This document shows positions 277 to 49,585 of a stretch of 64,000 nt of DNA, one piece after another (position 1 is the stretch's first letter; each line of letters opens with the position of its first letter). A program made the translations under genes and the position numbers. The DNA lies in the NCBI GenBank assembly GCA_965153455.1, contig OZ234493.1:19334213-19398212 (forward strand), in the 5' to 3' direction. The stretch is from Sphagnum compactum (taxonomy: Eukaryota). The notes below the pieces were generated by a model. The model saw nothing but the letters and a program-made list of their open reading frames with translations. It did not search any database and had not been told where the DNA came from.

Positions 277-3200
277 TTGGGGAGGTCAAGTGGAGGTGCA
301 TTCGATGGAGGAGCGATATCTACACATAGCCAGGGCGGCAGCGCTCGACCCTTCGACCCCTCAGTCTCTAGTTTGCAAACAAGGCGAGAACAAACTTCGA
401 GGTACGATTCACAGCAATCCGACTCATACTGGTCGCGGTCCTACTCTAGCTATGGAAGGTCATGGCGAGGAGGAGGAGGAGGAGGATCTCAGGGACAGCA
501 GCAAGTAGCTGAATCTGGCATTGACTTCTACTGGTTTATTGGCTTCTTCGTGATCGTGGGTACGCCAGATTTTCTTTCCTCTTCAGCTTTTCCTTCTTTG
601 GTTGTGCGCTTCTTCCTTTTTAAGAGAACCTCTGGTCCCAGTTTCTCTGGGAGTGGGTTTGAGTCTAGTTCTTTCAATTTCTAAAGCCCATGGTCCTGGT
701 TCTGGCACATTTTTTTAACAAATTCAAGAACCTCTACTCCTGGTTCTACACACACACTACACACTCCCAAATGTCAGATCTTATAAGTTTTACAACAAAA
801 TTAAAACAGGGTTTTGTATAGGTAAAGAGTTCAACAACTAGTGAAAATTAATACTTCACTAAGTTCAGCCTACTTGCCAACTTTCTCAAGAAAGAATCAA
901 CTTGCCCACCTAAAGAACCTGAACATGTACTCAACAGTGGTTTCGTTTTCAGTTCCAGATCTTGTTAAAAGGCTAGTTCCTCGGTCCCATTCTTGTTCCA
1001 GTTCCGTGCCAGTTCAAGTCCAGGGCACAAGAACTTGAAGCCCTGAATTTAACACTACAAACCGGATACCCTCACAAGACTGGTTTGAAACCTTAAATAT
1101 TTGACCTAAACCAAAGCACCAATGCTGGTTCAAACCTGTTCGTGGATTGTTTTTGCTTGTTAGCTGAAATTTGTATTTCAAAGAATGGGAAAGATAATTT
1201 GCACACATTTCACACAGAATCATCATACATTTCAGTCCTGTTGTTATATCATTGTTGTTCTTTCAGCTGCTTGTAGATCTCCATTTTTACAAATGAATAT
1301 TGCACCCACTTTGAGTCCGCAGTGTCACTATGGATGCTTATCAGCCTGTATGGATCTCAAGTCTTGGAGATGGGATTATTTTATTCGCGGATCCTGAAGG
1401 CTAGTCCTTTGTTGGTGAAGGAGATCAAGGTTGGTGAGCATTTTCTAATTGCTTATGAATCCAATGCACATGTGCCATGTTTGCATGTGTTTCATGCTCA
1501 GAGTTGTGGTTTGGAAATGGTTCAATTGCTGGGGGTTCATAATGTTGGACCATCTTGTTGAGTATCATCATCAGTATGGTGCTTTTTTGTGTGTGAGGGT
1601 TCAGGTTCAGAATCTTGGAGAGCCTGGTCCAGTTGTGACTTCATTTGCAAAGCATCCAGGTTATGGTCATCCGTTCATTTCAGACGAAAAATTTAATGTG
1701 ACAGTCAATCCACGGTTCCACCAGGCATGTATCTCTCTGCCATAGTTTCTGTTTGGATTTTGTATTGGACTCTCCTGCTTTTCTTATATGATGGTGGACA
1801 ATTGAAATCACTTTGCATCCATCTGATCTTAAGCAGAATCTGATGTGGTAGTTGTGTTCAATTATCTGCAGCGATATGGATTCTGGCTGAACAAAGGCTC
1901 ATCTTTTACTCTCATATATAATGTGAAAGACTCTTGGGAAGATAGCCTGGTGCTGGCAATTGTCAGAGGTGAAAAGGCTGTTATCTTCTTTGAGTTTGTT
2001 TGAAGGCGGAGCATTCAATCATGTTACCCATGCACACTGCTGGTTGATAGTCAAATTGTAGCTGCAGCTGTGGCGAACTCCAATGACAAGGTATATCGCC
2101 TGTGAAAAATTCATGTCATCTATTATTGACAAATGAATGTCATTTGGTTTACTGTTGCAGGTGAAGATAGCTATCAGGAATGGACAAAGGATCCAAGTAA
2201 TGCTCAATTAGTATCAGCATGGAAGCGGGTTTATGGTAAGACATTCATTCAGGTAGTCTCCTGGAGCACATGGGATGAAGTTGTATATGTTTGTTCAGCT
2301 AATTGCCAATCTTTGTATGACCGATCAGAGCTCAGGTTTGGTGGGTTGGGAGTCTTTCATCAAACTTCTGTGCTTACCTGCCTATTCTCTCTATGCAACA
2401 TGCAGGAAGAGGTTCATTAAATTTTACAGTGACAGAAGATGATGACTACTATGTTGCCTTTGGGAACTTGAATGCTCATGAAATGAAGGTGGGTGGTTCA
2501 ACTGCCTATTTATTCCATATACAAGTTTACATGAGTGTGAACAAGTCTACATGAGAGTTAACTCATGCGATCTGCTTTGCTGTGGTATCTTTCAGAACAA
2601 GAGAAACCCAGATCTGTACTTAGCTCATCAATATTGTGGTTATTTTTGTGCCAGATTTCCTTCCACTTGAAGATGCATTGCATGATTTATTCTGTTCAAG
2701 ATGCGGAATCTCACTGTTCACTGGTGAATGGGAACGTTTGCCGGGTGCCTCTGTCATTGTCCAAATCCAAGCGGGTGCTAATATCTGCACCTGACAAGAA
2801 GCAGGTATTTGAACCCTGAGTACATATCTGAGTTTTTGAGGAACAGATATAATGTTTCCACCAGAATAATGAGTCTGTCTTGCAGTTGTTTGAAGCTTTC
2901 CTTATTGGGTGGTCTGTCCAATCATTGATTTCTGCATAACAGGATGTAAAACTGCATTTATGAGTAAGGGCATTCTTATTCTGGTAGCCTATATCTGTGA
3001 ATTTTTGATATTCCATAACCAGCCTGCCACTACTAAAGCCTTTTAGTTGGGGTCATCTACAGGATTGGACTATGTATATTTGGTGTTGATTCACACTGTT
3101 GTGGTTGTGTATACAGCATGGTGTTGATGTTTGGAAGGTGAAAGTCTCATACATTCCACGCTGGATTACCTACTTCATATTGTGGAGTACGTTGTTTTTC

Positions 3201-3991
3201 CCATCCTGGACCTGAGGGAAATGCTTTGGTTTGCACTACTCAGTTTTTGTTGATTCAAGTTCTTCTATGATATTTTGACAACAATCCTGAAATTTCCCCA
3301 TTGGAGACGTTTGAAGCAAGTAAATTTGATTTCAACTGGGCTGAGGTTGCAGGTGTAATAGGGCTTGGACTATTAGGTATGGAGCTACGTAAACAAGGCA
3401 GGCAAGTTTCCACAAGTCAACGAGAGGTGGTTCCTCTCACATCTATAGAAGGAAATGAAAGCCCTGAAAATTTGGCAAGAGAAAGCCAGTCTGCTGACTT
3501 TTCACCAGCTTTAGGATCTGGAAACTTTCAAGGGGGACATGGAGAGCAATCTTTGGAGCAGCTGTGCACTGTGTGCTTGGATGCACCTAAAGACAGTTTC
3601 TTTGATCCTTGTGGCCATCGCTGCACATGTTACACCTGTGGCATGAGGTACGTACCCATGATCCAATGGCAACAAATGATTCCTTTTGCAGATGTTCTAG
3701 TTGTTTGCTGGTGGGGTTATAATCAGCTAGGACATGGGTAATTATCCAGCTGCATTTGCCCATGGCTCAGCAGTGCATGTTGTGAGTTCATTGTACTGTG
3801 ATCAGAAATCATCTGGACCACTGCTGTCGCACAAGGACAGTTTTGTTTCTCTATAAGTTTTCTGTTTGGAGCTTGTGGGCTGACCAAGAAACCATAACCG
3901 CTTGAATTGCAGGATACAAAATGGAGACATTGCAAGATGTCCCATTTGCCGGGAAAATGTGCGTGCTGTCCATAGGATTTATGACTCATAA
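277..3991 (+). CDS. APD-like (ABERRANT POLLEN DEVELOPMENT family) transmembrane RING E3 ubiquitin ligase, 10 exons; true start codon not identified
   Basis: Phase-consistent exons: ?-559, 1323-1429, 1605-1724, 1872-1968, 2161-2235, 2406-2488, 2655-2804, 3117-3186, 3353-3647, 3913-3991 (TAA). The spliced product has a TM segment FYWFIGFFVIVVSLWMLISLYG, the motifs WLNKGS, EWTKDP, YYVAFGNLN and VSYIPRWITY that I recall from Arabidopsis APD proteins, and a C-terminal RING CTVC..PCGHRCTCYTC..CPICR. Confidence 0.9.
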
Positions 3992-4662
3992 ACCCTTAGA
4001 AGCAACAATCTGGCTCTGGAGCAATCTTCCTTGAAAATTGCTTAAGTTTTCTGACTGTAAAGCATCTGAATGAGAAAATTGCTGATTTGGTGACTAAGGC
4101 ATGCTTTTTTTCTGTTCTGTGATTGACGACAAGCAAAACCATGGTCATCTTCTGAACTGGACAATGAAAAGATGTGTCATTGCAGTGTAGATATTATCAA
4201 TTTCTCCTAGCCTAGCTCATCTAATTATGCTGAAGCATTTTACAGTTAATGCTATGATGACAACAATCTTAGACGCTGGAAAATGCAACTGTGTCTAAGA
4301 TCGTTGCAACATCTTCTAAATCTGTACAACTTCAGGTTTTGCCACCCTAGATAGACAGCATGTTTGTGTAATCTGTCCTATTGCCAATCTGAACTTGAGT
4401 ACTTGGGATTGACCATTTGTGACTTGTGATCTGCAATTTTTATGATTGAGGTTTAGAGTTCCAAGGGGCATCAAGAGGAGATATCAACTCTGTGGAAATT
4501 GAAACATGTTAGAACATGTGGACACTAAGTTCAATGCAGTTTGAGTGGGTACATTATAACGGGATGAGCATTTCCGAAAATGGAACACTCGCCATATAAC
4601 AGTATAGTGGGTGTTTCATGTCATTTTACAAAATGGTCGCCCCTGTTTTTTTAATTTTGGAT

Positions 4663-4792
4663 GTGCTTTATGTTGGGCAACACCCACAGAGCATGGGCAT
4701 AACTGAAATAAGAACCCCCTTGGCTCCACCTCAGGAGGGTCCTTATTTCAGTAATGACCCACTCCTGGGGTGTTACCCTACACGTAAAGTAC
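4663..4792. repeat. ~130-bp imperfect inverted repeat (foldback/MITE-like hairpin)
   Basis: The arm GTGCTTTATGTTGGGCAACACCC..ACTGAAATAAG pairs with CTTATTTCAGT..GGGTGTTACCCTACACGTAAAGTAC. Confidence 0.75.
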
Positions 4793-5233
4793 CAGCAGAA
4801 CATTTCTAGTGTATCTGGAGAATCCATTATCTAGCAGAATTTCTCGGTGGCAAGCAGGCATGTCATTTTTTTCCCCCTTCATACCTGGTGGGTAACGTGT
4901 GATATGAGCTGAGTATCACTGGAAAAGAAATTTAAATTAATTTTCTGCCAGTGCTGTACATCAGAACACCCTCAGAGCAAGGTCTTACCCCAAAGACCGC
5001 ACACTGGCCAAAGCCAGGGCAGGCCTACTTCAGGGAGACTGCCTCACTTGGATTGGTATTACCCCGCTGATATTAAAGTTATCGGTAAAGTCATGGAAAG
5101 ACAGTATTGGAACCCCCCTCTGTTTCACTATTCACAGGGCACACCCTCCCATGCTGTGGCCACATATTGCAAGGCCATCAGAGGTATATATGTGTGCACT
5201 CTAAATAAATTATTTTACATGTTGTGAAACTAA

Positions 5234-27297: not shown

Positions 27298-27560
27298 CAA
27301 CATTTTTTTTGCTGCAAAATTTCACACCAATGCAAAATTTAAAAATGACTTGCGAGGTGTTTAGTGAGTTTTTTTTTGTTTTCAAAAAATTCACCAAAAA
27401 ATAGGGGATAAGGTGTTGTTCACCACATTTAGATTGTGTGCCCCTAGAAGTAGCTAAAAAGTAGCAAGATTCTAAAAAAAGTTAGCCAAATGTGGCTAAA
27501 TCCTTTTATGGATGGTTGCCAATGTGGTTACATTATAAAATTGAAAAAAAAATGATTGGT
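27298..27560. repeat. Dispersed repeat; uninterrupted paralogue of the element hit by the LINE (another copy at ~55210-55470)
   Basis: TTCACCACATT..AGTAGCTAAAAAGTAGCA.GATTCTAAAA..GCTAAATCCTTTTATGGATGGTTGCCAATGTG..AAAATTGAAAAA. Confidence 0.7.
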
Positions 27561-31871: not shown

Positions 31872-33860
31872 CCCCCTTGCTAAGGAAAAAGAGGATTGTA
31901 GTTGTGCACTAATTGTTTTTGCCCTCACCCTAAAGATGTAGTTATTCAAAAGAATGTAATTTGTTTGTTTCTCATGTTGAGACTTGAGACCTCCCAAATT
32001 GTGGTGCTTTAGACCATGTTCTTGGTATCTTTGGAAAGCTTATGACATACATTAGGGGTGATTTGGCTTAATTTTGTATTGTTTCCACTAACATTGTATA
32101 AATTATTGGATATTTATTTTGTCTCATTGAAAATTAAATCAATACTTAAGCAAAAATTTCAAAGGAATTAGGGTGCATCTAGATTTTTTTGAAATTTTTT
32201 TTTCAATTAGGATATAATGGAATTAATTTCATAATTTTCAGACCTAAGGTACGGGAGACATTATAATATGAGTATTTCATAATTGAAAATTCAAATATAT
32301 TTCAAAAATAGATTCAAAGACAAAAATATGGGTTAAATGTTTTACTTGCACCTTAGTTTTAAATTGAGATGCAATTAAACCTTTTTTAAAATTCAAATTT
32401 AGTTAGTAAAATCCTTCTCATATTATGTCAATTGAAAATATTTAAACTTCATTATGAAAGGTTTTCCAAAATCTACACAAAAAATACTAAAAACATTAAA
32501 ATATATATTTGAATTGAGGAAAATTGCATTTAAATCTTGCATTTCAATACATTTCAACAATGATGTCTTGAAAACATTTTCTTTTTTTAACTATCATTAT
32601 CTTTTTCATACTTCGTCCAAATGAAAGAAATTTTTAAATATGATTTTTTTGGTATAACATAATACATTTAAATTATGAAATTTAATACAAATAATTCATA
32701 AAATATGATATATCAACATATAATAATGTTAATCTCAAGACCATTTAATGTTTAGTATATTTAGAAAATACAATACGTTTAAATTTGGTATACTAAATAC
32801 ATACACGTTAAATTTTATGTTATAATACGAGTTTGATTATGTAGTTTGAAAATATAAATTAATTTTGAAATATAATTATTTTTTAAATGAAATTTCTATT
32901 ACAAATTATAAATATGTCTAGTATAATATTCATTTTATTCACAAATATTTTTATCAATATAGCATATAACAAATAAATATTTTCATATATTATATATAAG
33001 CGATGATAAAAATATTCAATAAATAAAACAATTATATGTAATATGTACAGAATTTTACATGTTATGTATTTTATATCTTATAAAAAAATGACATATTATA
33101 TAATATTTATTATATATTTCTGTGTTACAAAATATTTGATTTTGATTTTGTTTTGTTGTAAACATCATTTAGCATTTTATTGAATAAAGGCAGAAAATAA
33201 AATCTGGCTTATTTTTCAGAATTAAAATAAAATTTTATTTCAATAGTATATATATTCGATTTAAGACTGATAATATATACATTAATTAACAATGAATTAT
33301 ATCATTAATTGATATAATAAATACATTGAAATGAATTTATGTAGAATTATTTTACCAATAATTTTCAATATTAAGAAATTAGGTAAATTATGTAATTAAA
33401 TATTTTTAATTAATAATTAAAATTAATAAAATAACATATAAATTATTACTTGTTTATATATTTATTTAAAATAATCCAAAAATAAAATACATTAATTTTT
33501 TATTATATATAAATGGAATATTTATATTTAGTATTAATTATTTAAAAATGAAATGAAGATATTTAAAACAAAATATTCTAAATGGTTTTAATATTTAAAT
33601 AATTATTATATTATGTAATTATAAATAATATGCTAGTTGATCATACAAAATATTTTTAAAATATTAATAGTATTCCAATTAATTAACATAAATAATTAAT
33701 AAAATTAAATAACTAAGAAATTCCTTATTTATTTATTTATTTGGAATTTTATTGTAGTTCATTTGGGTTCAAAATAATGGAATATGTTGATTGATTTTAA
33801 ATTATTCTACATATCGTATTACATTATATTACTGAAATATACTATTTGTAATATACTATA

Positions 33861-33865
<5 letters not shown>

Positions 33866-33903
<38 letters not shown>
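33866..33903. repeat. (TA)n(CA)n microsatellite inside an extremely AT-rich block (~32.3-34.1 kb)
   Basis: Read directly from the sequence. Confidence 0.9.
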
Positions 33904-34162
33904 TTTTTTCATCTTTTTATTTCTTAAAACTTGTCTTTACATTGTAAAAAATGAAGGCCCAAATTAATATATGGCAATTAAATTCAAAATTGTATGTAAA
34001 ATAAATTTCTAAATGTGTCCTAAGTTGGTTGAAATCACATTCCAATTTGTCATATCATAACTATTTGATGTAATAAAAGGTTATGATAAATAATCTTATA
34101 TTTTATAAATTAATTATATTAAATAAATAATGACATGATGAAATTCAAGTGAAAAATTTCAA

Positions 34163-41969: not shown

Positions 41970-42880
41970 ATAATAAGAGAGGAAATGAAGTCAATGATTG
42001 AGTGTTGTGAGCAACGGTTTTTTTTTTTGTGTGGAATTACAGTTGTTGCCAAATTTGAAGATGACCTGCTGCAAGCTCAAATAATTAAGGTTATTCCTGA
42101 AATTCTTCAAAATATTTGCCCAAAATATATAGGAGAAGGGTCTGTTTTTCAGACCATTCCAGAATTCAAGGTGTCATCAAGAGGACAAAGGCCGAGTGAA
42201 AGGTACCAAATTTTTTAGAAGGGTCTGAAAGCAAACCTTTCTCTTGCATGAAGAACCGGCTAGTCTTTTTGGAAAACAGGTATCTAATCAATTGATCGGC
42301 ATTTAACAAAGTCTTAAGGTCCAGTGAAAAATTACTCTTGAGGAGCAACCTAAATATAGAAAGGAAAGAATCCGCCGGCGCTTTATGGATTACAAAGCCG
42401 GCACTTGGTGTTAGTTATGGTTCCCAGTGAGCCAAATGGCGAGCCCGATAACATGAGTGCCGGCTGCCTAGCATAAAGGAGTGACGCTACCAAATTGGCA
42501 GGTCATAGAGTAGGAGTGTAGGAAAAGACAGAATCTGCCGTTGTGGCAGTTTATGGAAAATAGCCAGGCCTTAAAACAGGCCAAATCCGCAACCTCAGTC
42601 CTCTTTGCAGGGGGAAAAGTTGTTGTTCACCACATTAAGACTATGTGCTTCTAGACGTAGTAGCTAAACAGTAGCATGATTCTAAAAGAAACTTAACTTC
42701 ATGTTTGTCCTCTAGCCAAACATAGCTAAATCCTTCTATGGAGCCGGTTGCTGGCCAAAAAGAGTCGACTAACTGGTTTAATCTACCTGTTTTTATTCCC
42801 GTGTACTGTTGCCATCCTGATTTCTCATTTCGTCGCCATTTTAGGGTACTGTTTCCATCCCGGCTTCTCACTTCGACCCT

Positions 42881-43030: not shown

Positions 43031-43587
43031 TATACGTAGAATCTGCTGCTGCTGCTCTATTTACATGAGCACGTCCAAAAGCTCTTTCTGAAAAGCTTTG
43101 GTACTTACAGCAAATTCTTGTTCGGCTATAGTAGACTCACGAGTGTATGTAGCTTGGAGAAGACAGGCAGAGAGCCAGAGAGAGTTTTGGGGTGGTGAAG
43201 CATGGGGGCATCCAACAAGTTCTTCAAGACATTGGTGACGGTGAGGCGGATTGTGAAACCAAGTACCAGTAGTGTGGAGAAAGATGACAATGTAAGTCTG
43301 TAGACCCAGCTGTTGCTTTCTGCTCAAAGAGACTTCCAACACTTTCCTGCCTAATTGAGCATCCAGAAAATTTCTGGTGCCTTGTTGATGTGGAAAAGAA
43401 GAAAGCTTGTTAGGGGGTGTTTAGGGTTTTCTCAAATAGCATTGGTTCAGGATTTTTGGACACGGAGCTTGATGGACCTGGGCCTTCTTAGGTTGGCCTG
43501 ACCTTCTTGTACGTAAGGGTTTGGTTGGTCTGAGGCCTCTGGAATTGGGGTGTGGGTTAAGAAAGTTAGGGTTTTGGGTTTTGGATA

Positions 43588-44454
43588 ATGATGAATGCCA
43601 CGGTTTTCGACGCTAAAACATGGGAATGGAACAAGGACTCGTTGACGATCATGGAGATGCAGGTAGTTGAACTCCAGGCACTATGTACACGCTATAACCT
43701 CAAGCCTGCCAAGACCAGCAAGGCAGCTGCTGCAGCAGCCATCGTCAACTATCTCATGGTCCCTAGGGCTGATGTGGTGACGAAACAGGATGTGCACAAT
43801 GTTATTGAGGTCACTATGGAGCAGGTCGCAAAAAACATTCTGGCTCCAGCAATGGAAGCTAAGATTGTGACCGTAACTAGCCAAGTCGAAACGCTGCAAA
43901 ATAAGGTAGATGCGATGGCTAAGAGCTTTGATACCATGCAAGACAGTGGGGAGAAGTGGAAGGAGGTCGTGGGCAAGAAGGTTGACAAGGTTGTCAACAA
44001 GGTGGACCGGGCAACGGATGTTGACCTAGTCAAGGCCAGGGAAGCAAACATCCGGGTCACCGGGTTGACCATGAGCAAGGGGGAAACCTCAAAACAACTT
44101 ATGGAGTTGGTGCAGACGGAGCTGCTTGACAAGCTGAAGGTTGCTGACCATGTGCAGGTGCAGAAGGTGCACCGGCAGATGCCGTTAGGGCGATTGGATA
44201 AGGCCAATGACAAGGCACCGGCAGTCATCATCACGCTGGCATCGGTACATGACAAGCTCATAGTGTTGCGCGCTCGCAAAGGCTTGTAAGGCACTCAGCT
44301 TGGGCTCGATGAGGACTTGACTCCTGCTCAGCAAGCCCAGAAACGAGCTGCTTGGGCCACCTTCAAGGAGGCCAAAGAGGCTGGAGAACGGGTCTACTGG
44401 CGTGGGGCCGATCTCTACATCAACCACAAAGTCGTAAATTCTCCTACTGCATAG
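43588..44454 (+). CDS. LINE ORF1 (SAP-like N-terminus, coiled coil, RRM-CTD type), with a premature TAA at 44287
   Basis: Contains NIRVTGL..VIITL..KLIVL. After the internal TAA the frame continues GTQLGLDEDLTPAQQ..AKEAGERVYWRGADLYIN, a typical ORF1p CTD (EDLT), ending at TAG 44452-44454. Confidence 0.8.
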
Positions 44455-47400
44455 GGGGGCGGGGGCCAGAGAGACTTGTGTGTGTGCCTATGGAACATCC
44501 ATGGGGCCGCTATCACAAAGCTAGAAACACATGAACATCTGCTTGACCTATTTCAACATGTTGACGTTGTTGCTTTGACAGAAACACATCACTTCCCGGG
44601 CGATACATTCCCGGTCTTACCGGGGTTCTACTGTTTTGATGTTGCCAGGCCTGTGACTCCACAGGGTGTCATTCAAAAGCACAGTGGAGGCATTGCGGTA
44701 CTAGTCAGGGAAACATGGGCAAATAGTACTGTTGTTTGGAAGACTGCAAGGGATGGGATTAGGATTTGGCTGCGCTTGGGCAATGCTTTCCAAAGGCCTT
44801 TGTTCCTGTGCATAATATATGCTGCTCCACAAGGCTCGCCATATGCGGACAGCAGCCTGTTTGAATACATACGCCAAGAGGTTGGAGAAGCCATGAACTT
44901 AGGCAGTGTGCTTCTTGCTGGGGATTTCAATGCAAGGACAGGCACAAACATTGACTTCATTGATTGTAGTCAACTAGCAGATGTGCTGTTGGTGCCACAG
45001 GCCATTGAGGACACCCTGCCCAACGATATGTTGGAGCGCCAGAACCGCGACACCGTCACGGCTGGTTGGCATCGTGAATTCCTCGATCTCTGCAGAACTA
45101 CTGGGCTATTCATCCTCAATGGCCGCACACCAGGAGACATATCAGGGGAGTACACATGCCTATCCAATAAAGGTTTTAGCACTGTGGACTATTTTCTTAC
45201 GACAGCTAACCAATTAAAGGGTGTCAAGCGCTTAGAGGTTAACTGCGATGAAAAGTACTCAGGCCACAAAGATGCGCACTCTGATCATAGACCATTGGTA
45301 CTTACAATCACACAACAGTGGCAACCCCCTCCTGTTCAGCAAAAGGCGATCAAACACCTACCACGTTTCAAATATGACACTACCAAAGCAGCCGAATTTA
45401 GCAAAAGTGTACAGCATAACATCGATGTCTGGGCAAGCCCAGATGTACTCGATGCATCTGACGTACAAACAACAATCAATCTGTTACAACAGTGCATCAC
45501 ACAATCTGCAGAAGAAGTGTTTGGAAATAGACAAGTGGCTTTAGGAAAAACAATAAAACATAGTCACAAACCCTGGTTTGACACAGAATGTCGCCAGACC
45601 AAAAGCCAGTTTGCTAAATTGTCACATGCACACCCAGATAGGCAGGTCAAACTTAAGCAAATGAAACAATTGTACAAAAGAAAGAAACGTGCTTATGATG
45701 TACTCAAGGCTAAACAACTATGTGGTTTAGCGAAGGCGGATCCTGCAGCATTCTGGAAGCGGTACCGTAAGCGCGCTGAAGGTGTCAATGGCATCACCAG
45801 CGAAGCACTCAGGGATGGCTTCCAGCAATTGCTTCAGCCTCCGGCGGCACTAGCCACAACAGGAGCCGTGACAGGTGCCGCTATTCAAGCCCAGGTGGTT
45901 TCCTTTCCACCCCATGGTATTGATTGCGAACAGTTGAATGTTGACATCACACTAGTTGAAGTACAACAAGCGTTCAAAAAGCTAAAACGACACAAAGCTG
46001 CAGGCATTGATGGCATCAAACCAGAGTTCCTTTTGGATGCGGCTGTTGCCTTGCAACAACCACTATTGATTGCTTTTAACAAAATTCTGCGTGAGGGCTA
46101 TTGTGAATCACTCTCTGTTGGGATCATACATGCACTATACAAAGGGGGTGACTACAGTCAGTTTGACAATTACAGGGGGATCACAGTAGGACCAGTCTTA
46201 GCCAAGGTGTTTGCAATGATTCTTGAGTCTCGCATCAGTCAATGGGCGGAGACTAATGATTTACGCGCAAAAGGACAGGCTGGTTTCAGAAAGGACTTTA
46301 GGACAACAGATAACTTGTTTATTCTTCGCACTTTGACCGAACAAGCCAGATTTCAGAAAAAGAAGCTATACACTTGTTTTGTGGACCTCAAAAACGCCTT
46401 TGATACAGTACCAAGGGACCTGTTGTGGCAGGTGCTGGAGGGACTTGGCATCAGTGGGCGGGTACTGGAATGCTTGCGTTCCATGTACCATCAAGACCAG
46501 GCCTGCCTGCACCATCCAGAGGAGGGGCTCACGCCCACTTTCCTCTGCCGCATCGGAGTGAAGCAAGGATGCCCCCTCAGCCCGCTCCTATTTGGCCTCT
46601 TCATAGATGGCTTAGAGAAATGGCTGAATGCTTTGGAGGGTGATGCACCACCAATGTTGGATCAACTAGCTGTTCGCTTGCTTTTGTATGCAGACGACTT
46701 AGCTCTCATGTCACACACTCCTGGTGGATTGCAGAAGCAATTAGATGTCTTGCAGGCTTTTTATTGTGAGCGTCAGTTGACTGTGAATGTCAAGAAAACC
46801 AAGGTTGTTGTGTTTGAAGCACACAAGTCTGTGTGTCAGGCTTTTCAGTATGAGGGTGAAACTATAGAGCAACTAAACTCTTTCAAGTATTTAGGTGTTG
46901 AGCTGCATGGCACAAAAGGTATGCAAGCTGCAATACAACAATTAGCAATGTCTGGGAAAAAGGCAGTTTTTGCATTGCAGCGTAGATGCGCAGAACTGCG
47001 CATCTTTGACCCAGCATTACAATGCCAGTTGTTTGATGCACTAGTCAAACCAGTGCTTAGCTATGGGTGTGAAGTATGGTTAGACCACATGGCACGCGAA
47101 CAGTTAGAGGTGGTTCATCGGGCTTTTCTAAAGTTGTTGCTAGCGGTCAGCACCACGACATCCAGTTACGTCGTGCTGGCAGAGTTTGGCAGGTTTCCCC
47201 TAGAAATATATTGGTGGCAACAGACCATGCGCTTTCTCTCACGTGTCAGTTCTAAGGTAGACTCAGATCGCATGCTCAAGCTAGCTTATGATGTACAGCT
47301 GCAGTTGCTTGCAGCCAGGCGAAAAGTCTCACTCGGGAACCAGAGTGCTGTGGGTAGAAAAAGCCGATTGCCTGCTTGCTGGCTAGCACAAGTAGATGAA

Positions 47401-47924
47401 CGACTGTCGACGTACAATTTGTGCATCGATCGCAATCAGCTGCCACCATGTGCTCGCCTCAAGCAGTTGGCTGAAAGGCAATACATTGTACACCATCAAG
47501 TGGCTGCAGCTGACTCTAGCAGGGTGAGAGCCTATTTGGGGTTGAATAGCTCAACACAGTATGGGTACAAAGAATACCTCTCCAGGGTAAACAATGCACA
47601 GCTTAGGAGAAGCTTGGCACATTTTCGTTGTGCGAATCACAAGCTACAGATTGAGCTAGGAAGGCAAGCCAAGCCAAGCCAGTGAAGGTGCCAGTGCAAC
47701 AGCGTTACTGCAAATTGTGCAACTTGGGTGCGGTTGAGGATGAGGACCACTTCTTGTTGGTTTGCCCTACCTATCAAAATGTTCGGGAGAGGTTTAGAGG
47801 TTCATTGCCACTAACTGCCATCACACCTTTGGCTGAATTGATGAGCTGTCAGCAGCAAGGCATCCTTGCTAGATTCTTAGTGCAATGTCAGAAGGTTAGA
47901 TCTGAATTGCTTCATCAGACTTAA
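44455..47924 (+). CDS. LINE ORF2: AP endonuclease, reverse transcriptase and CCHC zinc finger; one frameshift near the 3' end
   Basis: EN motifs WNIHG, LTETH, IYAAP, AGDFNAR, TVDY, SDH. RT motifs YRGITV, QAGFR, FVDLKNAFD, GVKQGCPLSPLLF, YADD, FKYLG. (AAGCC)3 at 47666-47680 shifts the frame; removing one 5-bp unit joins it to the 47682-47924 zinc-finger ORF. Confidence 0.95.
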
Positions 47925-49585
47925 CGTCAAATGGGTTCTGGCTCGGGCGTTGTTTGGCCCACTTAATGACGCTAAATTGTAAGTAAGTAAGTAAGTAAGA
48001 TGGTTGCCAATGTGCTTCAACACAAAATTGAAAAAGAAAAACAACCATCTAAATAGGACAATTTTTTTCAATTGTTTCTTCAAAAAATGGCAAGAAAAAT
48101 GCCTCAAAGTACCATTTTTTCCCCCTTTTTCTGGAAGAGATATTAACCAAAACAAAGTGTTGCATGGCTCTTCTTATTAAGTCCAGTAAATATTTATTAG
48201 CTATTACCATGATTCTTGATTAATACTATGTCCTATAACATAGTTTTAAAATATTAATAAATTAATAATCAAATTACTATCTTATAGTTTAAAATTATTA
48301 TCATATGATTAAAATGATTATTATATTGGAATATTATATTATGAGTTTTATTAATTTTTTAAATAAATTAATTTTTTAAATAAATCATTAATAGTGCCCA
48401 AATAATTTAATTTGAGCATAATTTAACATTTATTGGCTTTTAAATATTGACTAATTAGTAGTCATTACTATTATTTTTCATTAACTAGTTCAATTAGATT
48501 ATTGAGATATTTTAGAATTAACGATAATTTATTATCTGAATAACTAGTCATTGAGTTATATATACATATTAGTGAACAAGTTAATAAATTGTCTCAAATC
48601 ATTCATTGATAAATATTAAATATATTTTTTTTGAAATAAGTTTTTTACTTGTAAACTAAATAGTTTTAAGTTCACTAATTACTATTGCATATTTCTTCAC
48701 TAATCTATTAATTAATATGAATAATTCATAAATAATGATAAACTACTATATCAATTTATGATCTCATACCTAATTAATCAACTAGTTTTTAAAGTAAGTA
48801 ATAAATAATAATTGATTTTTTTTATTAATTAAAATATAATTGAATGGTTAAAAAAATTATGTAATTCATAGTTTATATTAAGTAATCAATTAGTTGATAA
48901 TAATAATTTATGAATAATTAACATTCATTTAATACAATGAGGTAGGTAGCCCTACTCCACCCTTAATAATCCATTTTGCATGATTTTTATAAATGTTTCA
49001 ATGGTCGTACCAATGGTTTGACAATAGGACCTTTTTGAAAATTCTGGAAAGCTAAATATTGCTACTATATTTTGTTATTTTTCTTTATGTTTGAATCTTT
49101 TATTGTCAAGTTTTTTATTCCACTAGCCCAAATATGGCATTTTATGATTAGATATACAACTTAAAATGTAGTCGTGGACACCATTTATGACTAACCATGA
49201 CTACCTAGGAGAATCAAACTTATCACTTTACCACATAATCATTGATATGGTCATAGTCGTAATTGTGGTCCACAATCTTAAATATGCATAGTCATAAATT
49301 ACAATCATGGATGTTACTACATCAAATAATTCATGGCCATTGGATATTCAATTTTTAAAATATCTTTATATACATGGATTGATATCTAACCTACACATGG
49401 CATGTGTCCATTATATATAAGGCAACACATGTCATGCAAGGCCTATTTCCTCATTATATTCCAATTCTAATATTTAAAACTTATTATAATTTGATTAATC
49501 TAAATGCCCCACATGTTGGGCAATGAGGTCAATTAAAAATCTTACGTGGCAATCAATTCAATGTTAATGTCAAAATCAAAGTCAA

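What the first reader, a model, noticed from the sequence alone, without database searches (positions are those of the whole stretch)
44430..44520. LINE ORF2 lacks an N-terminal AUG and sits in frame behind ORF1's UAG, in a gammaretrovirus-like readthrough context
Seen: the ORF1 frame ends ..CCT ACT GCA TAG (44452-44454) and continues in the same frame as GGG GGC GGG GGC CAG AGA GAC TTG TGT GTG TGC CTA TGG AAC ATC CAT GGG, i.e. a Gly linker straight into endonuclease motif I (LCVCLWNIHG). The first in-frame ATG is at 44893, after the essential WN and ETH motifs. A 7-bp hairpin CCTATGG-AACAT-CCATGGG lies ~30 nt downstream of the stop. Established: MuLV gag-pol is made by readthrough of UAG followed by a purine-rich spacer (UAG-GGAGGUCA-GGGUCAGG) and an RNA structure; here the context is UAG-GGGGGCGG-GGGCCAGA. 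The LINEs I know of use reinitiation or translational coupling instead. Inference: this family may make an ORF1-ORF2 fusion (~1,440 aa) by programmed readthrough. Caveat: this copy also has a premature TAA at 44287, so the TAG could be a CAG->TAG mutation, implying a single fused ORF, which would also be unusual.
Basis: partly seen in the sequence, partly recalled or inferred. Interest (0 to 1): 0.85.

Follow-up and report, generated by a model that had tools for sequence, protein, structure and literature searches.

The report
LINE with in-frame UAG before ORF2
A moss-associated jumping gene (an L1-like LINE) keeps its second gene directly behind the first gene's UAG stop, in the same frame and with no AUG of its own, and a very distant relative does the same, which points to ribosomes reading through the stop but does not prove it.

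Summary

- **Junction:** ORF1 (288 codons) ends at TAG 44452-44454. ORF2 follows in the same frame.
- **No early start:** the first conserved in-frame ATG is ORF2 codon 147. That lies past the endonuclease residues N14 and E43.
- **Family copies:** of 46 distinct metagenome insertions covering the junction, 41 have TAG, 5 have TAA and none has a sense codon.
- **Decay in this copy:** the TAA at 44287 is private to it.
- **Distant relative:** L081 is an intact element with about 25% ORF2 identity. It has the same layout: ORF1-TAG-GG, same frame, endonuclease 13 codons later, no ATG for 72 codons.
- **ORF1 fold:** it resembles human L1 ORF1p, and two further ORF1 lineages end at the same point. 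A single fused ORF is therefore excluded.

There is also no evidence of translation, and RNA is nearly absent.

Programmed UAG readthrough giving an ORF1p-ORF2p fusion is my best reading (about 0.55). AUG-independent reinitiation is the main rival.

The parts
43545..43587 (+). Short 5' leader of the element, carrying plant-telomere-like TTTAGGG repeats just before the ORF1 ATG
   Evidence: Homology with other copies begins at window 43544-43577. Leader sequences of the copies are shown.
43588..44454 (+). ORF1 of 288 codons plus TAG. It is L1 ORF1p-like (coiled coil, RRM, C-terminal domain) and is broken in this copy by TAA at 44287-44289.
   Evidence: Translation. Intact 288-aa versions exist in L001 and L030. 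The AlphaFold model's ranks 1-11 in the PDB search are all human LINE-1 ORF1p, E 1.4e-7 to 6.4e-5. There is no Pfam hit.
44287..44289 (+). Premature TAA private to this copy
   Evidence: The other 80 loci read CAG 37, CAA 12, TAG 8, CAT 6, AAG 1, CGG 1 and gap 15. T>C at 44287 dominates in three DNA runs.
44452..44454 (+). ORF1 stop codon TAG, in frame with ORF2. This is the candidate recoding site.
   Evidence: Of 46 distinct insertions, 41 have TAG, 5 have TAA and 0 have a sense codon. A TAG sits at the same place in L081.
44455..44478 (+). Eight linker codons (GGGGQRDL) between the stop and the first endonuclease strand. The first 8 nt are GGGGGCGG, of which 7 are purines.
   Evidence: The type III readthrough motif is defined in PMC3542737 (passages read).
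44455..47685 (+). ORF2 as open in this copy (1076 codons). It has no in-frame ATG before codon 147.
44488..45216 (+). APE-type endonuclease domain (ORF2 residues 12-254), with N14 and E43 upstream of the first ATG
   Evidence: Pfam PF03372, E 2.9e-11.
44487..44505 (+). It is not distinctive.
   Evidence: z -0.52 to +0.83 against shuffles. (44490 is G in 41 of 46).
46165..46905 (+). Reverse transcriptase domain (ORF2 residues 571-817)
   Evidence: Pfam PF00078, E 5.2e-30.
47665..47679 (+). 5-nt duplication (CAAGC unit) that frameshifts the ORF2 C-terminus in this copy
   Evidence: The window has 35 nt between two anchors. The other 40 of 40 loci have 30 nt.
47686..47924 (+). Native ORF2 C-terminus, now in the +2 frame. 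It holds a Cys-His motif (CxxC...H....C) and ends at TAA 47922-47924.
   Evidence: Three-frame translation. The same motif occurs in P0007, P0034 and L081 ORF2.

Best explanation
The window holds one slightly decayed copy of an L1-like LINE. In its active form the element is built as ORF1 (288 aa, L1 ORF1p-like RNA-binding protein), then UAG, then ORF2 (about 1154 aa: endonuclease, reverse transcriptase, Cys-His tail). The two ORFs share a frame, no spacer lies between them, and ORF2 has no usable AUG.

The most likely working: most ribosomes stop at the UAG and make ORF1p. A small fraction decode the UAG, which sits in a UAG-GG context, as an amino acid and continue through a short Gly-rich linker. 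This would give an ORF1p-ORF2p fusion of about 1443 aa, the way retroviruses make Gag-Pol.

Such a fusion would fix a low ORF2p:ORF1p ratio. Through the ORF1p coiled coil it could also place the enzyme in the same RNA-protein particle.

**Shown:** the architecture, that it is ancestral in the family, its persistence in an active lineage, and its recurrence in a distant intact relative.

**Inferred:** that the stop is read through, that a fusion protein exists, and the co-assembly idea.
For: 1. **The layout is the family's ancestral state.** Of 52 distinct insertions, 46 cover the junction: 41 have TAG, 5 have TAA by the common G>A decay, and 0 have a sense codon.
   - Read laying listed no insertion or deletion at a share of 10% or more in three DNA runs.
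   - One copy (L029) has a 7-nt deletion, and 5 are truncated.

2. **ORF2 cannot start at an AUG and still be an endonuclease.**
   - Codon 147 is the first ATG, in 80 of 80 loci.
   - Codon 10 reads GTG in 51, ATG in 15, GCG in 4 and ATA in 2. The neighbouring variants fit decay of a CpG.
   - Codon 67 reads GTG in 62 and ATG in 17.
   - The EN domain begins at residue 12.

3. **The element was functional with this layout.**
   - The per-column majority of the copies has 0 stops in ORF1 and in ORF2.
   - L001 and L030 keep an open 288-codon ORF1 up to the TAG.
   - The window copy has 0 stops in 1065 ORF2 codons; the 46 other copies have a median of 10.6 stops per 1000 codons.
   - Its dN/dS against the majority is 0.24 for ORF2 and 0.17 for ORF1. 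The decayed copies have a median of 0.41, range 0.22-0.63.

4. **An independent lineage has the same layout.** L081 was found through an ORF1 motif, not through its junction.
   - ORF1 lies at 221-1192 and ORF2 at 1193-4804, in one frame. Both are open, at 316 and 1203 codons.
   - The stop is TAG and the next bases are GGC CCT GGC.
   - EN starts at residue 13 and the first ATG is codon 73.
   - Its ORF2 is about 25% identical to the window's over 651 aa.
   - ORF1 homology rests on the C-terminal domain: hhalign probability 94.5%, E 7.6e-8.

5. **A Gly-rich linker runs across the stop in L081.** It reads ...GGKPGGKKGGAQA, stop, GPGS.... The window has GGGG directly after the stop.

6. **The context matches a known motif class.** UAG followed by G or by a purine-rich octanucleotide is the sequence part of the type III readthrough motif. 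Plant viruses use UAG-GGR and UAG-GGG (PMC3542737, table and passages read).

7. **L1s thought to reinitiate do not keep such a junction.** Vertebrate L1 junctions range from overlap to a spacer of 1032 bp (PMC5381506, passages read).

8. **Both elements end ORF1 with TAG and ORF2 with TAA**.
Against: - **No stimulatory RNA structure was found.**
  - Folds downstream of the stop are no more stable than shuffles. The window family gives z -0.52 to +0.83 and L081 gives z -0.98 to +0.21.
  - My enumeration found no H-type pseudoknot in three family copies. In L081, 187 of 300 shuffles scored at least as well.
  - Rfam has no match at the junction.
- **Only UAG-GG and the frame are shared with L081.** The long G-tract is not.
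- **A purine at +4 usually favours termination when no structure follows.** This is recalled, not checked here.
- **Conservation among the 46 copies is inheritance, not selection.**
  - Pairwise identity is narrowly centred on 0.91.
  - Shared variants show no excess of synonymous changes over private ones.
  - The comparative support therefore rests on one further lineage.
- **Relatives may have their own ORF2 start.**
  - P0007 (45% identical over 1088 aa) begins MSLLLWN, which aligns with window codon 8 (UUG). Whether its M is a real ATG is unknown.
  - Most full-length relatives have 3-26 residues of their own before the EN start.
- **No predicted protein joins ORF1 to EN.**
  - There is none among the 150 listed of 4197 HMMER hits.
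  - There is none of 505-2000 aa with ORF1 as query. The tool calls that weak evidence.
- **RNA is nearly absent.** Only 4 reads from about 12% of one polyA run were laid, and none was on the junction.
- **An in-frame stop does not prove readthrough.** In Tca2, an LTR element with gag-UGA-pol, the junction sequence did not direct readthrough in reporters (PMC2194720, abstract read).
Confidence: 0.55

Rival explanations
1. AUG-independent termination-reinitiation or near-cognate initiation. Ribosomes finish ORF1 at the UAG and some restart nearby without an AUG, for instance at UUG (codon 8), GUG (codon 10) or CUG (codon 12). In L081 the candidates are CUG 10 and GUG 12. This would give a separate ORF2p, as proposed for human L1. 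The shared frame would then be a coincidence.
For: - The element is L1-like by its ORF1p fold.
[quoted passage not shown] The original paper (Alisch et al. 2006) was not held.
- Near-cognate codons lie 24-36 nt after the stop in both lineages. Separations of up to 29 nt are tolerated in pneumovirus reinitiation (PMC5972666).
- P0007 starts at the position of window codon 8.
Against: - This model needs neither a shared frame, nor UAG in particular, nor GG after it.
- L081 nevertheless shares all three with the window at about 25% ORF2 identity. My rough chance estimate is 1/3 x about 0.3 x about 0.09, or about 0.01, with G at 0.30 in L081.
- No start or near-cognate codon overlaps or abuts the stop.
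- A start at codon 8-12 leaves 2-6 residues before the catalytic Asn.
- The stretch right after the stop encodes a Gly-rich linker in both lineages. Under this model that stretch would be untranslated.
Confidence: 0.33
2. ORF2 of this family is not translated from its own RNA at all. The copies were spread in trans by another LINE, and the junction has no function.
For: - No direct evidence of translation exists.
- RNA is almost absent in the one polyA run laid.
Against: - The majority state of ORF2 is fully open.
- The window copy keeps 1065 ORF2 codons free of stops. The decayed copies have a median of 10.6 stops per 1000 codons.
- The window copy's dN/dS of 0.24 is below their median of 0.41.
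- L081 has both ORFs intact.
Confidence: 0.05
3. The TAG is a CAG>TAG mutation of this copy, and the family really has one fused ORF.
For: This copy does carry other private damage: the TAA at 44287 and a 5-nt duplication.
Against: - 0 of 46 distinct insertions have a sense codon at the junction.
- ORF1 proteins of two further lineages (P0033 and P0154 as one, P0074 as the other) end at the same alignment position.
- L081 has a TAG at the same boundary.
- No ORF1-containing protein longer than 504 aa was found.
Confidence: 0.01
4. A tiny in-frame intron removes the stop. GTAAAT at 44434 through CATAG at 44454 spans 21 nt, which is 7 codons including the TAG.
For: The 21 nt start with GT and end with AG behind a pyrimidine-rich stretch, and their length is a multiple of three.
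Against: - 21 nt is far below the intron lengths I recall for land plants. This was not checked here.
- The nearest GT...AG pair at the L081 junction spans 17 nt, which is not a multiple of three.
- Read laying listed no joint at this place, but RNA coverage there was zero.
Confidence: 0.02

Closest known systems
Mammalian LINE-1 (L1): ORF1p/ORF2p bicistronic element
   Same: - Two ORFs on one RNA.
- ORF1p with coiled coil, RRM and C-terminal domain. The model's best PDB matches are human L1 ORF1p.
- ORF2 with an N-terminal APE endonuclease and then a reverse transcriptase.
- The catalytic Asn is residue 14 counted from the codon after the stop. I recall N14 for human L1.
   Different: - L1 ORF2 has its own AUG, and the junction ranges from overlap to a spacer of 26-1032 bp (PMC5381506). 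Here there is a single in-frame UAG, no spacer and no AUG.
- ORF1 does not reach Pfam's L1 ORF1 family by sequence.
- The ORF2 C-terminal CxxC...H....C motif follows an H.L.IE.GR-type motif.
Gammaretrovirus gag-UAG-pol and plant-virus type III readthrough (Tombusviridae UAG-GGR; rice stripe necrosis virus UAG-GGG)
   Same: - A structural or RNA-binding protein comes first and the polymerase lies behind an in-frame UAG.
- G follows the stop, and the window has a purine-rich first octanucleotide (PMC3542737; window).
   Different: - The defining 3' RNA structure (compact pseudoknot or stem-loop) was not found.
- The element is a non-LTR retrotransposon, not a virus.
- Readthrough has not been measured.
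Zorro3, an L1-clade LINE of Candida albicans
   Same: A review states that its ORF2 is separated from ORF1 by in-phase stop codons and that it is unclear whether they are bypassed (PMC3956500, passage read). An in-phase LINE junction therefore has a precedent with no known mechanism.
   Different: - Zorro3 has four in-phase stops and a zinc-knuckle (type I) ORF1.
- Here there is a single UAG-GG and an L1 ORF1p-like (type II) ORF1.
SART1 (Bombyx) UAAUG translational coupling, and the AUG-less UUGA junction of a Naegleria LINE
   Same: [quoted passage not shown]
   Different: In those cases the start codon overlaps the stop and the ORFs are out of frame. Here nothing start-like overlaps the stop and the ORFs share a frame.

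Membership tests
L1-like LINE (APE-type non-LTR retrotransposon with L1-type ORF1p) | ORF2 with an N-terminal APE-type endonuclease followed by a reverse transcriptase | tested here: met
   PF03372 at residues 12-254 (E 2.9e-11) and PF00078 at residues 571-817 (E 5.2e-30).
L1-like LINE (APE-type non-LTR retrotransposon with L1-type ORF1p) | ORF1p with coiled coil, RRM and C-terminal domain | tested here: met
   AlphaFold model with mean pLDDT 59.9; the RRM/CTD blocks reach 70-84. Foldseek ranks 1-11 are all human L1 ORF1p, E 1.4e-7 to 6.4e-5, and the RRM domain 2w7a gives TM 0.73. The model has moderate confidence and rests on 5 sequences.
L1-like LINE (APE-type non-LTR retrotransposon with L1-type ORF1p) | Sequence membership of ORF1 in the Pfam L1 ORF1 family | tested here: not met
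   No Pfam hit reaches its cut-off for the window ORF1, P0001, P0033, P0074 or L081 ORF1. phmmer against PDB sequences found nothing below E 1.
L1-like LINE (APE-type non-LTR retrotransposon with L1-type ORF1p) | Placement inside the L1 clade on a reverse-transcriptase tree | not tested
   No reference set of named clades was at hand. Clade membership is therefore left open, and I say 'L1-like' only.
L1-like LINE (APE-type non-LTR retrotransposon with L1-type ORF1p) | Target-site duplication and a 3' tail | tested here: inconclusive
   The fetched loci stop at about window 47905-47927 because of the flank limit. The window has (TAAG)5 at 47979-47999 after the ORF2 stop. No duplication was searched for.
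Type III programmed stop-codon readthrough | UAG stop with the downstream ORF in frame | tested here: met
   Window, family and L081.
Type III programmed stop-codon readthrough | A 3'-adjacent G or a purine-rich octanucleotide | tested here: met
   The window has GGGGGCGG, 7 of 8 purines. L081 has GGCCCTGG, which starts with G but has only 4 of 8 purines. The definition comes from PMC3542737.
Type III programmed stop-codon readthrough | A stimulatory 3' RNA structure (compact pseudoknot or stem-loop, or long-range pairing) | tested here: not met
   Folds are no better than shuffles. There is no H-type pseudoknot in the family, and none above shuffles in L081. Long-range pairing was not tested.
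Type III programmed stop-codon readthrough | Measured readthrough or a detected fusion protein | not testable with these tools
   This needs a reporter assay, Ribo-seq or proteomics.
Termination-reinitiation (SART1 or calicivirus type) | A start codon overlapping the upstream stop or within a few nt of it | tested here: not met
   No AUG is there. The nearest in-frame near-cognate codons are 21 nt or more after the stop: UUG at codon 8 in the window and CUG at codon 10 in L081.

The most novel reading that the evidence does not exclude
An old clade of L1-like LINEs makes its endonuclease/reverse transcriptase only as a readthrough extension of ORF1p. So far it is seen in a moss-associated genome and in an unidentified GC-rich eukaryote. 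This would be a Gag / Gag-Pol strategy in a non-LTR retrotransposon. The UAG would set the ORF2p:ORF1p ratio, and the ORF1p coiled coil would draw the fusion into the trimer that coats its own RNA. That would give a physical basis for cis-preference.
Probability: 0.5. Interest if true: 0.8.

Novelty: new variant of a known kind. Interest (0 to 1): 0.66.

Why it matters
How LINEs translate ORF2 from a bicistronic RNA is still unsettled, even for human L1 (PMC5381506; PMC5009743).

A LINE lineage in which ORF2 has no AUG and sits in frame behind a conserved UAG-GG offers a simple natural test case. A one-base frame shift after the stop would separate readthrough from reinitiation.

If it is readthrough, three things follow:
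- It links LINE and retroviral expression logic.
- It predicts an ORF1p-ORF2p fusion protein.
- Annotation pipelines miss these ORF2s or truncate them at the first internal Met. The database proteins starting MCLWN..., MVWN... and MWN... look like this.

My full-text searches found no paper that claims stop-codon readthrough for a LINE ORF2. The older plant-LINE literature is mostly not open access and was not searchable.

Tried and rejected
- **Whole genome:** none is held for the window, and the window holds only this one copy.
- **Records behind the metagenome loci:** they could not be searched, so no other LINE family of the same host was reached.
- **Flanks of the 80 loci and the window:** tblastn with 7 relatives' proteins hit only this element in the window. 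Hits in the loci were not checked for other families.
- **Viral-contig scans:** the ORF1 alignment and the ORF2 alignment each found no relative.
- **The assembly holding L081:** it has only that one copy.
- **Fused ORF1-ORF2 proteins:**
  - None is among the 150 listed of 4197 HMMER hits.
  - P0098 aligns from query residue 265, but that stretch is K/E-rich low complexity, not ORF1.
  - The word-index search for longer proteins found none.
- **Selection inside the family:** shared variants are mostly recurrent transitions, stops included. Shared transversions have the same nonsynonymous:synonymous ratio as private ones, 4.6 against 5.1. The 46 copies therefore count as one observation of the ancestor.
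- **RNA structure:** RNAfold, my pseudoknot enumeration and Rfam all gave nothing above background.
- **G-quadruplex idea:** considered for the G6-C-G5 tract and dropped, because L081 has no G-runs.
- **Papers not held:** Wright et al. 1996 by DOI, Alisch et al. 2006 and Kojima et al. 2005. What I say of the last two comes from review passages.
- **A recollection I could not check:** that some plant LINE descriptions mention ORFs in one frame separated by a stop.


Full report
**What is in the window**

Frame 1 holds three open stretches in a row: 43570-44289 (ends TAA), 44290-44454 (ends TAG) and 44455-47685. The last stretch has an APE-type endonuclease at residues 12-254 and a reverse transcriptase at 571-817. 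The window holds only this one copy, and no whole genome is held for it.

**The family**

A scan of metagenome contigs with the endonuclease region matched 253 stretches. Of these, 172 encode relatives, and the best 80 were kept, at 82-91% amino-acid identity.
- Homology to the window runs from about 43545 to at least 47905. The fetched flanks end there.
- At 98.5% identity or more, the 80 loci collapse to 52 distinct insertions.
- Pairwise identity is narrowly centred on 0.91.
- Shared variants are mostly recurrent transitions with no excess of synonymous changes.

The copies therefore look like one burst followed by neutral decay. They tell us the ancestral sequence, not ongoing selection.

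**The junction in the family**

- Across all 80 loci the junction codon is TAG in 62 and TAA in 8. It is a gap in 5 and partial or misaligned in 5.
- After removing duplicates, 46 of 52 insertions cover it. Of these, 41 have TAG, 5 have TAA and none has a sense codon.
- The 6 that do not cover it are 5'-truncated, or in one case carry a 7-nt deletion.
- The G>A change that gives TAA is as frequent as G>A at neighbouring Gs.
- The TAA at 44287 is private to the window. Elsewhere that codon is CAG in 37 loci, CAA in 12, TAG in 8, CAT in 6, other in 2 and a gap in 15.
- Three DNA runs read C at 44287 in most or all contigs.

**No AUG for ORF2**

- Codon 147 is ATG in 80 of 80 loci.
- Codon 10 is GTG in 51, ATG in 15, GCG in 4 and ATA in 2.
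- Codon 67 is GTG in 62 and ATG in 17.
- The variants around codon 10 (TGCGCGTG, TGCGCATG, TGTGCGTG and others) fit decay of CpGs in an ancestral CGC GTG. The ATG there is therefore derived.

The catalytic Asn is residue 14 and the ETH glutamate is residue 43. A start at codon 147 could not give an endonuclease.

The window's ORF2 ends early at TGA 47683. Between two anchors the window has 35 nt, and 40 of 40 other loci have 30 nt. This is a 5-nt duplication of a CAAGC unit. The native frame continues through a CxxC...H....C motif to TAA 47922-47924. That gives about 1154 codons, and a fusion would have about 1443 aa.

**Was the layout functional?**

- The per-column majority of the copies has no stop in either ORF.
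- L001 and L030 keep an open 288-codon ORF1 from ATG to the TAG.
- The window copy has no stop in 1065 ORF2 codons. The 46 other copies have a median of 10.6 stops per 1000 codons.
- Its dN/dS against the majority is 0.24 for ORF2 and 0.17 for ORF1. The decayed copies have a median of 0.41, range 0.22-0.63.
- In run X1, high-depth contigs match the window with 1-3 differences over 133-238 nt. One of them spans the junction.

I read this as a lineage that stayed active for some time with this junction. The dN/dS contrast is moderate, because the window's value lies at the low end of the decayed copies' range.

**ORF1**

- It has no Pfam family and no sequence match in the PDB.
- A model built on 5 sequences (mean pLDDT 59.9) shows a small helical head, a long helix, an RRM-like fold and a small C-terminal domain.
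- Its ranks 1-11 in the PDB search are all human LINE-1 ORF1p, E 1.4e-7 to 6.4e-5.
- Two further ORF1 lineages at 31-33% identity end at the same alignment position. These are P0033 with P0154 as one lineage, and P0074 as the other.

The stop sits at the natural end of ORF1p and is old. A single fused ORF is excluded.

**A distant relative with the same junction**

Scanning one genome per prokaryote species with the ORF1 alignment gave one locus, L081. It is a 5.5-kb contig with 60% G+C, binned in a cyanobacterial MAG, and it consists almost wholly of a LINE. It is probably a eukaryotic contig that was binned by mistake.
- ORF1 (221-1192) and ORF2 (1193-4804) are in one frame and both are open, at 316 and 1203 codons.
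- The stop is TAG, followed by GGC CCT GGC.
- The endonuclease starts at residue 13 and the first ATG is codon 73. ORF2 ends with TAA.
- Its ORF2 is about 25% identical to the window's over 651 aa.
- The ORF1 C-terminal domain matches the family profile with probability 94.5%.
- A Gly-rich linker runs across the stop.

L081 was found by an ORF1 motif, so its junction played no part in the choice. If the junction were free to vary, my rough estimate of the chance of the same frame, the same stop codon and GG after it is about 0.01. This is one lineage only.

**What speaks against readthrough**

- The sequence part of the type III motif is present: UAG plus G or a purine-rich octanucleotide. Plant viruses use UAG-GGR and UAG-GGG (PMC3542737). 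The structure part is not.
- Folds after the stop are no better than shuffles.
- My enumeration found no H-type pseudoknot in three family copies, and none above shuffles in L081.
- Rfam has nothing at the junction.
- No fused protein is in the databases.
- P0007, the closest other full-length ORF2, starts MSLLLWN at the position of window codon 8, which is UUG. I could not see whether its M is an ATG.
- One polyA RNA run gave 4 reads, none on the junction.
- In Tca2 an in-frame gag-UGA-pol junction did not direct readthrough in reporters (PMC2194720, abstract).

**The main rival**

For mammalian L1, reviews describe AUG-independent initiation or termination-reinitiation (PMC5972666; PMC5009743). 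Near-cognate codons lie 21-33 nt after the stop in both lineages.

That model does not predict the shared frame, the UAG or the GG. In vertebrate L1 the junction varies from overlap to a spacer of 1032 bp (PMC5381506).

**Verdict**

The layout is conserved and was functional, but the MuLV-like structure is absent and readthrough is inferred.
- I put programmed UAG readthrough giving an ORF1p-ORF2p fusion at about 0.55, and AUG-independent restart at about 0.33.
- An in-phase LINE junction has a precedent in Zorro3, with unknown mechanism (PMC3956500).
- My eight full-text searches found no claim of readthrough for a LINE ORF2.
- Older subscription papers and the closed supplements of LINE surveys could hold one.

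Noticed in passing
window 47665-47679: A 5-nt duplication (CAAGC unit) frameshifts the ORF2 C-terminus of this copy and cuts off the Cys-His motif. 40 of 40 other loci lack it.
   Followed up: yes
window 43545-43587, and the leaders of L003, L005, L014, L015, L018 and others: The short leader just before the ORF1 ATG is made of plant-telomere-like TTTAGGG repeats. Further upstream the copies fall into at least five groups with unrelated leader sequences. This may reflect exchanged 5' modules or shared insertion sites.
   Followed up: partly
window 47979-47999: A (TAAG)5 microsatellite lies about 55 nt after the native ORF2 stop. It is possibly the element's 3' tail. The fetched loci end before this point.
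   Followed up: no
L077, L079, L080 (their equivalent of window 44525-44594): This insertion group carries a tandem repeat of a 70-nt piece of the endonuclease region. The BLAST pieces show three copies in L079 and L080.
   Followed up: no
L081 (contig in a MAG labelled Cyanobium sp.): A 5.5-kb contig with 60% G+C that is almost entirely an intact eukaryote-type LINE sits in a cyanobacterial bin. This looks like a binning contaminant. It is the only copy in that assembly.
   Followed up: partly
public protein clusters of this family's ORF1 (P0168, P0169): Two ORF1 fragments of 175 aa carry the source name 'tRNA G10 N-methylase Trm11'. That name looks like a mis-annotation of a LINE ORF1.
   Followed up: no
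window 42611-42695 and 47999-48039, against 27404-27552: Short stretches on either side of the element match window 27404-27484 and 27511-27552 at 84-86% identity. They may belong to another repeat into which the LINE inserted.
   Followed up: no
window 32001-34000: A very AT-rich block with G+C of 0.175, against 0.25-0.49 elsewhere in the window.
   Followed up: no
database proteins P0003/P0163, P0034, P0012/P0157: Predicted ORF2 proteins of this family and of relatives start only 1-3 residues before the WN motif (MCLWN, MVWN, MWN). Gene callers appear to clip AUG-less ORF2s at the first usable start.
   Followed up: partly
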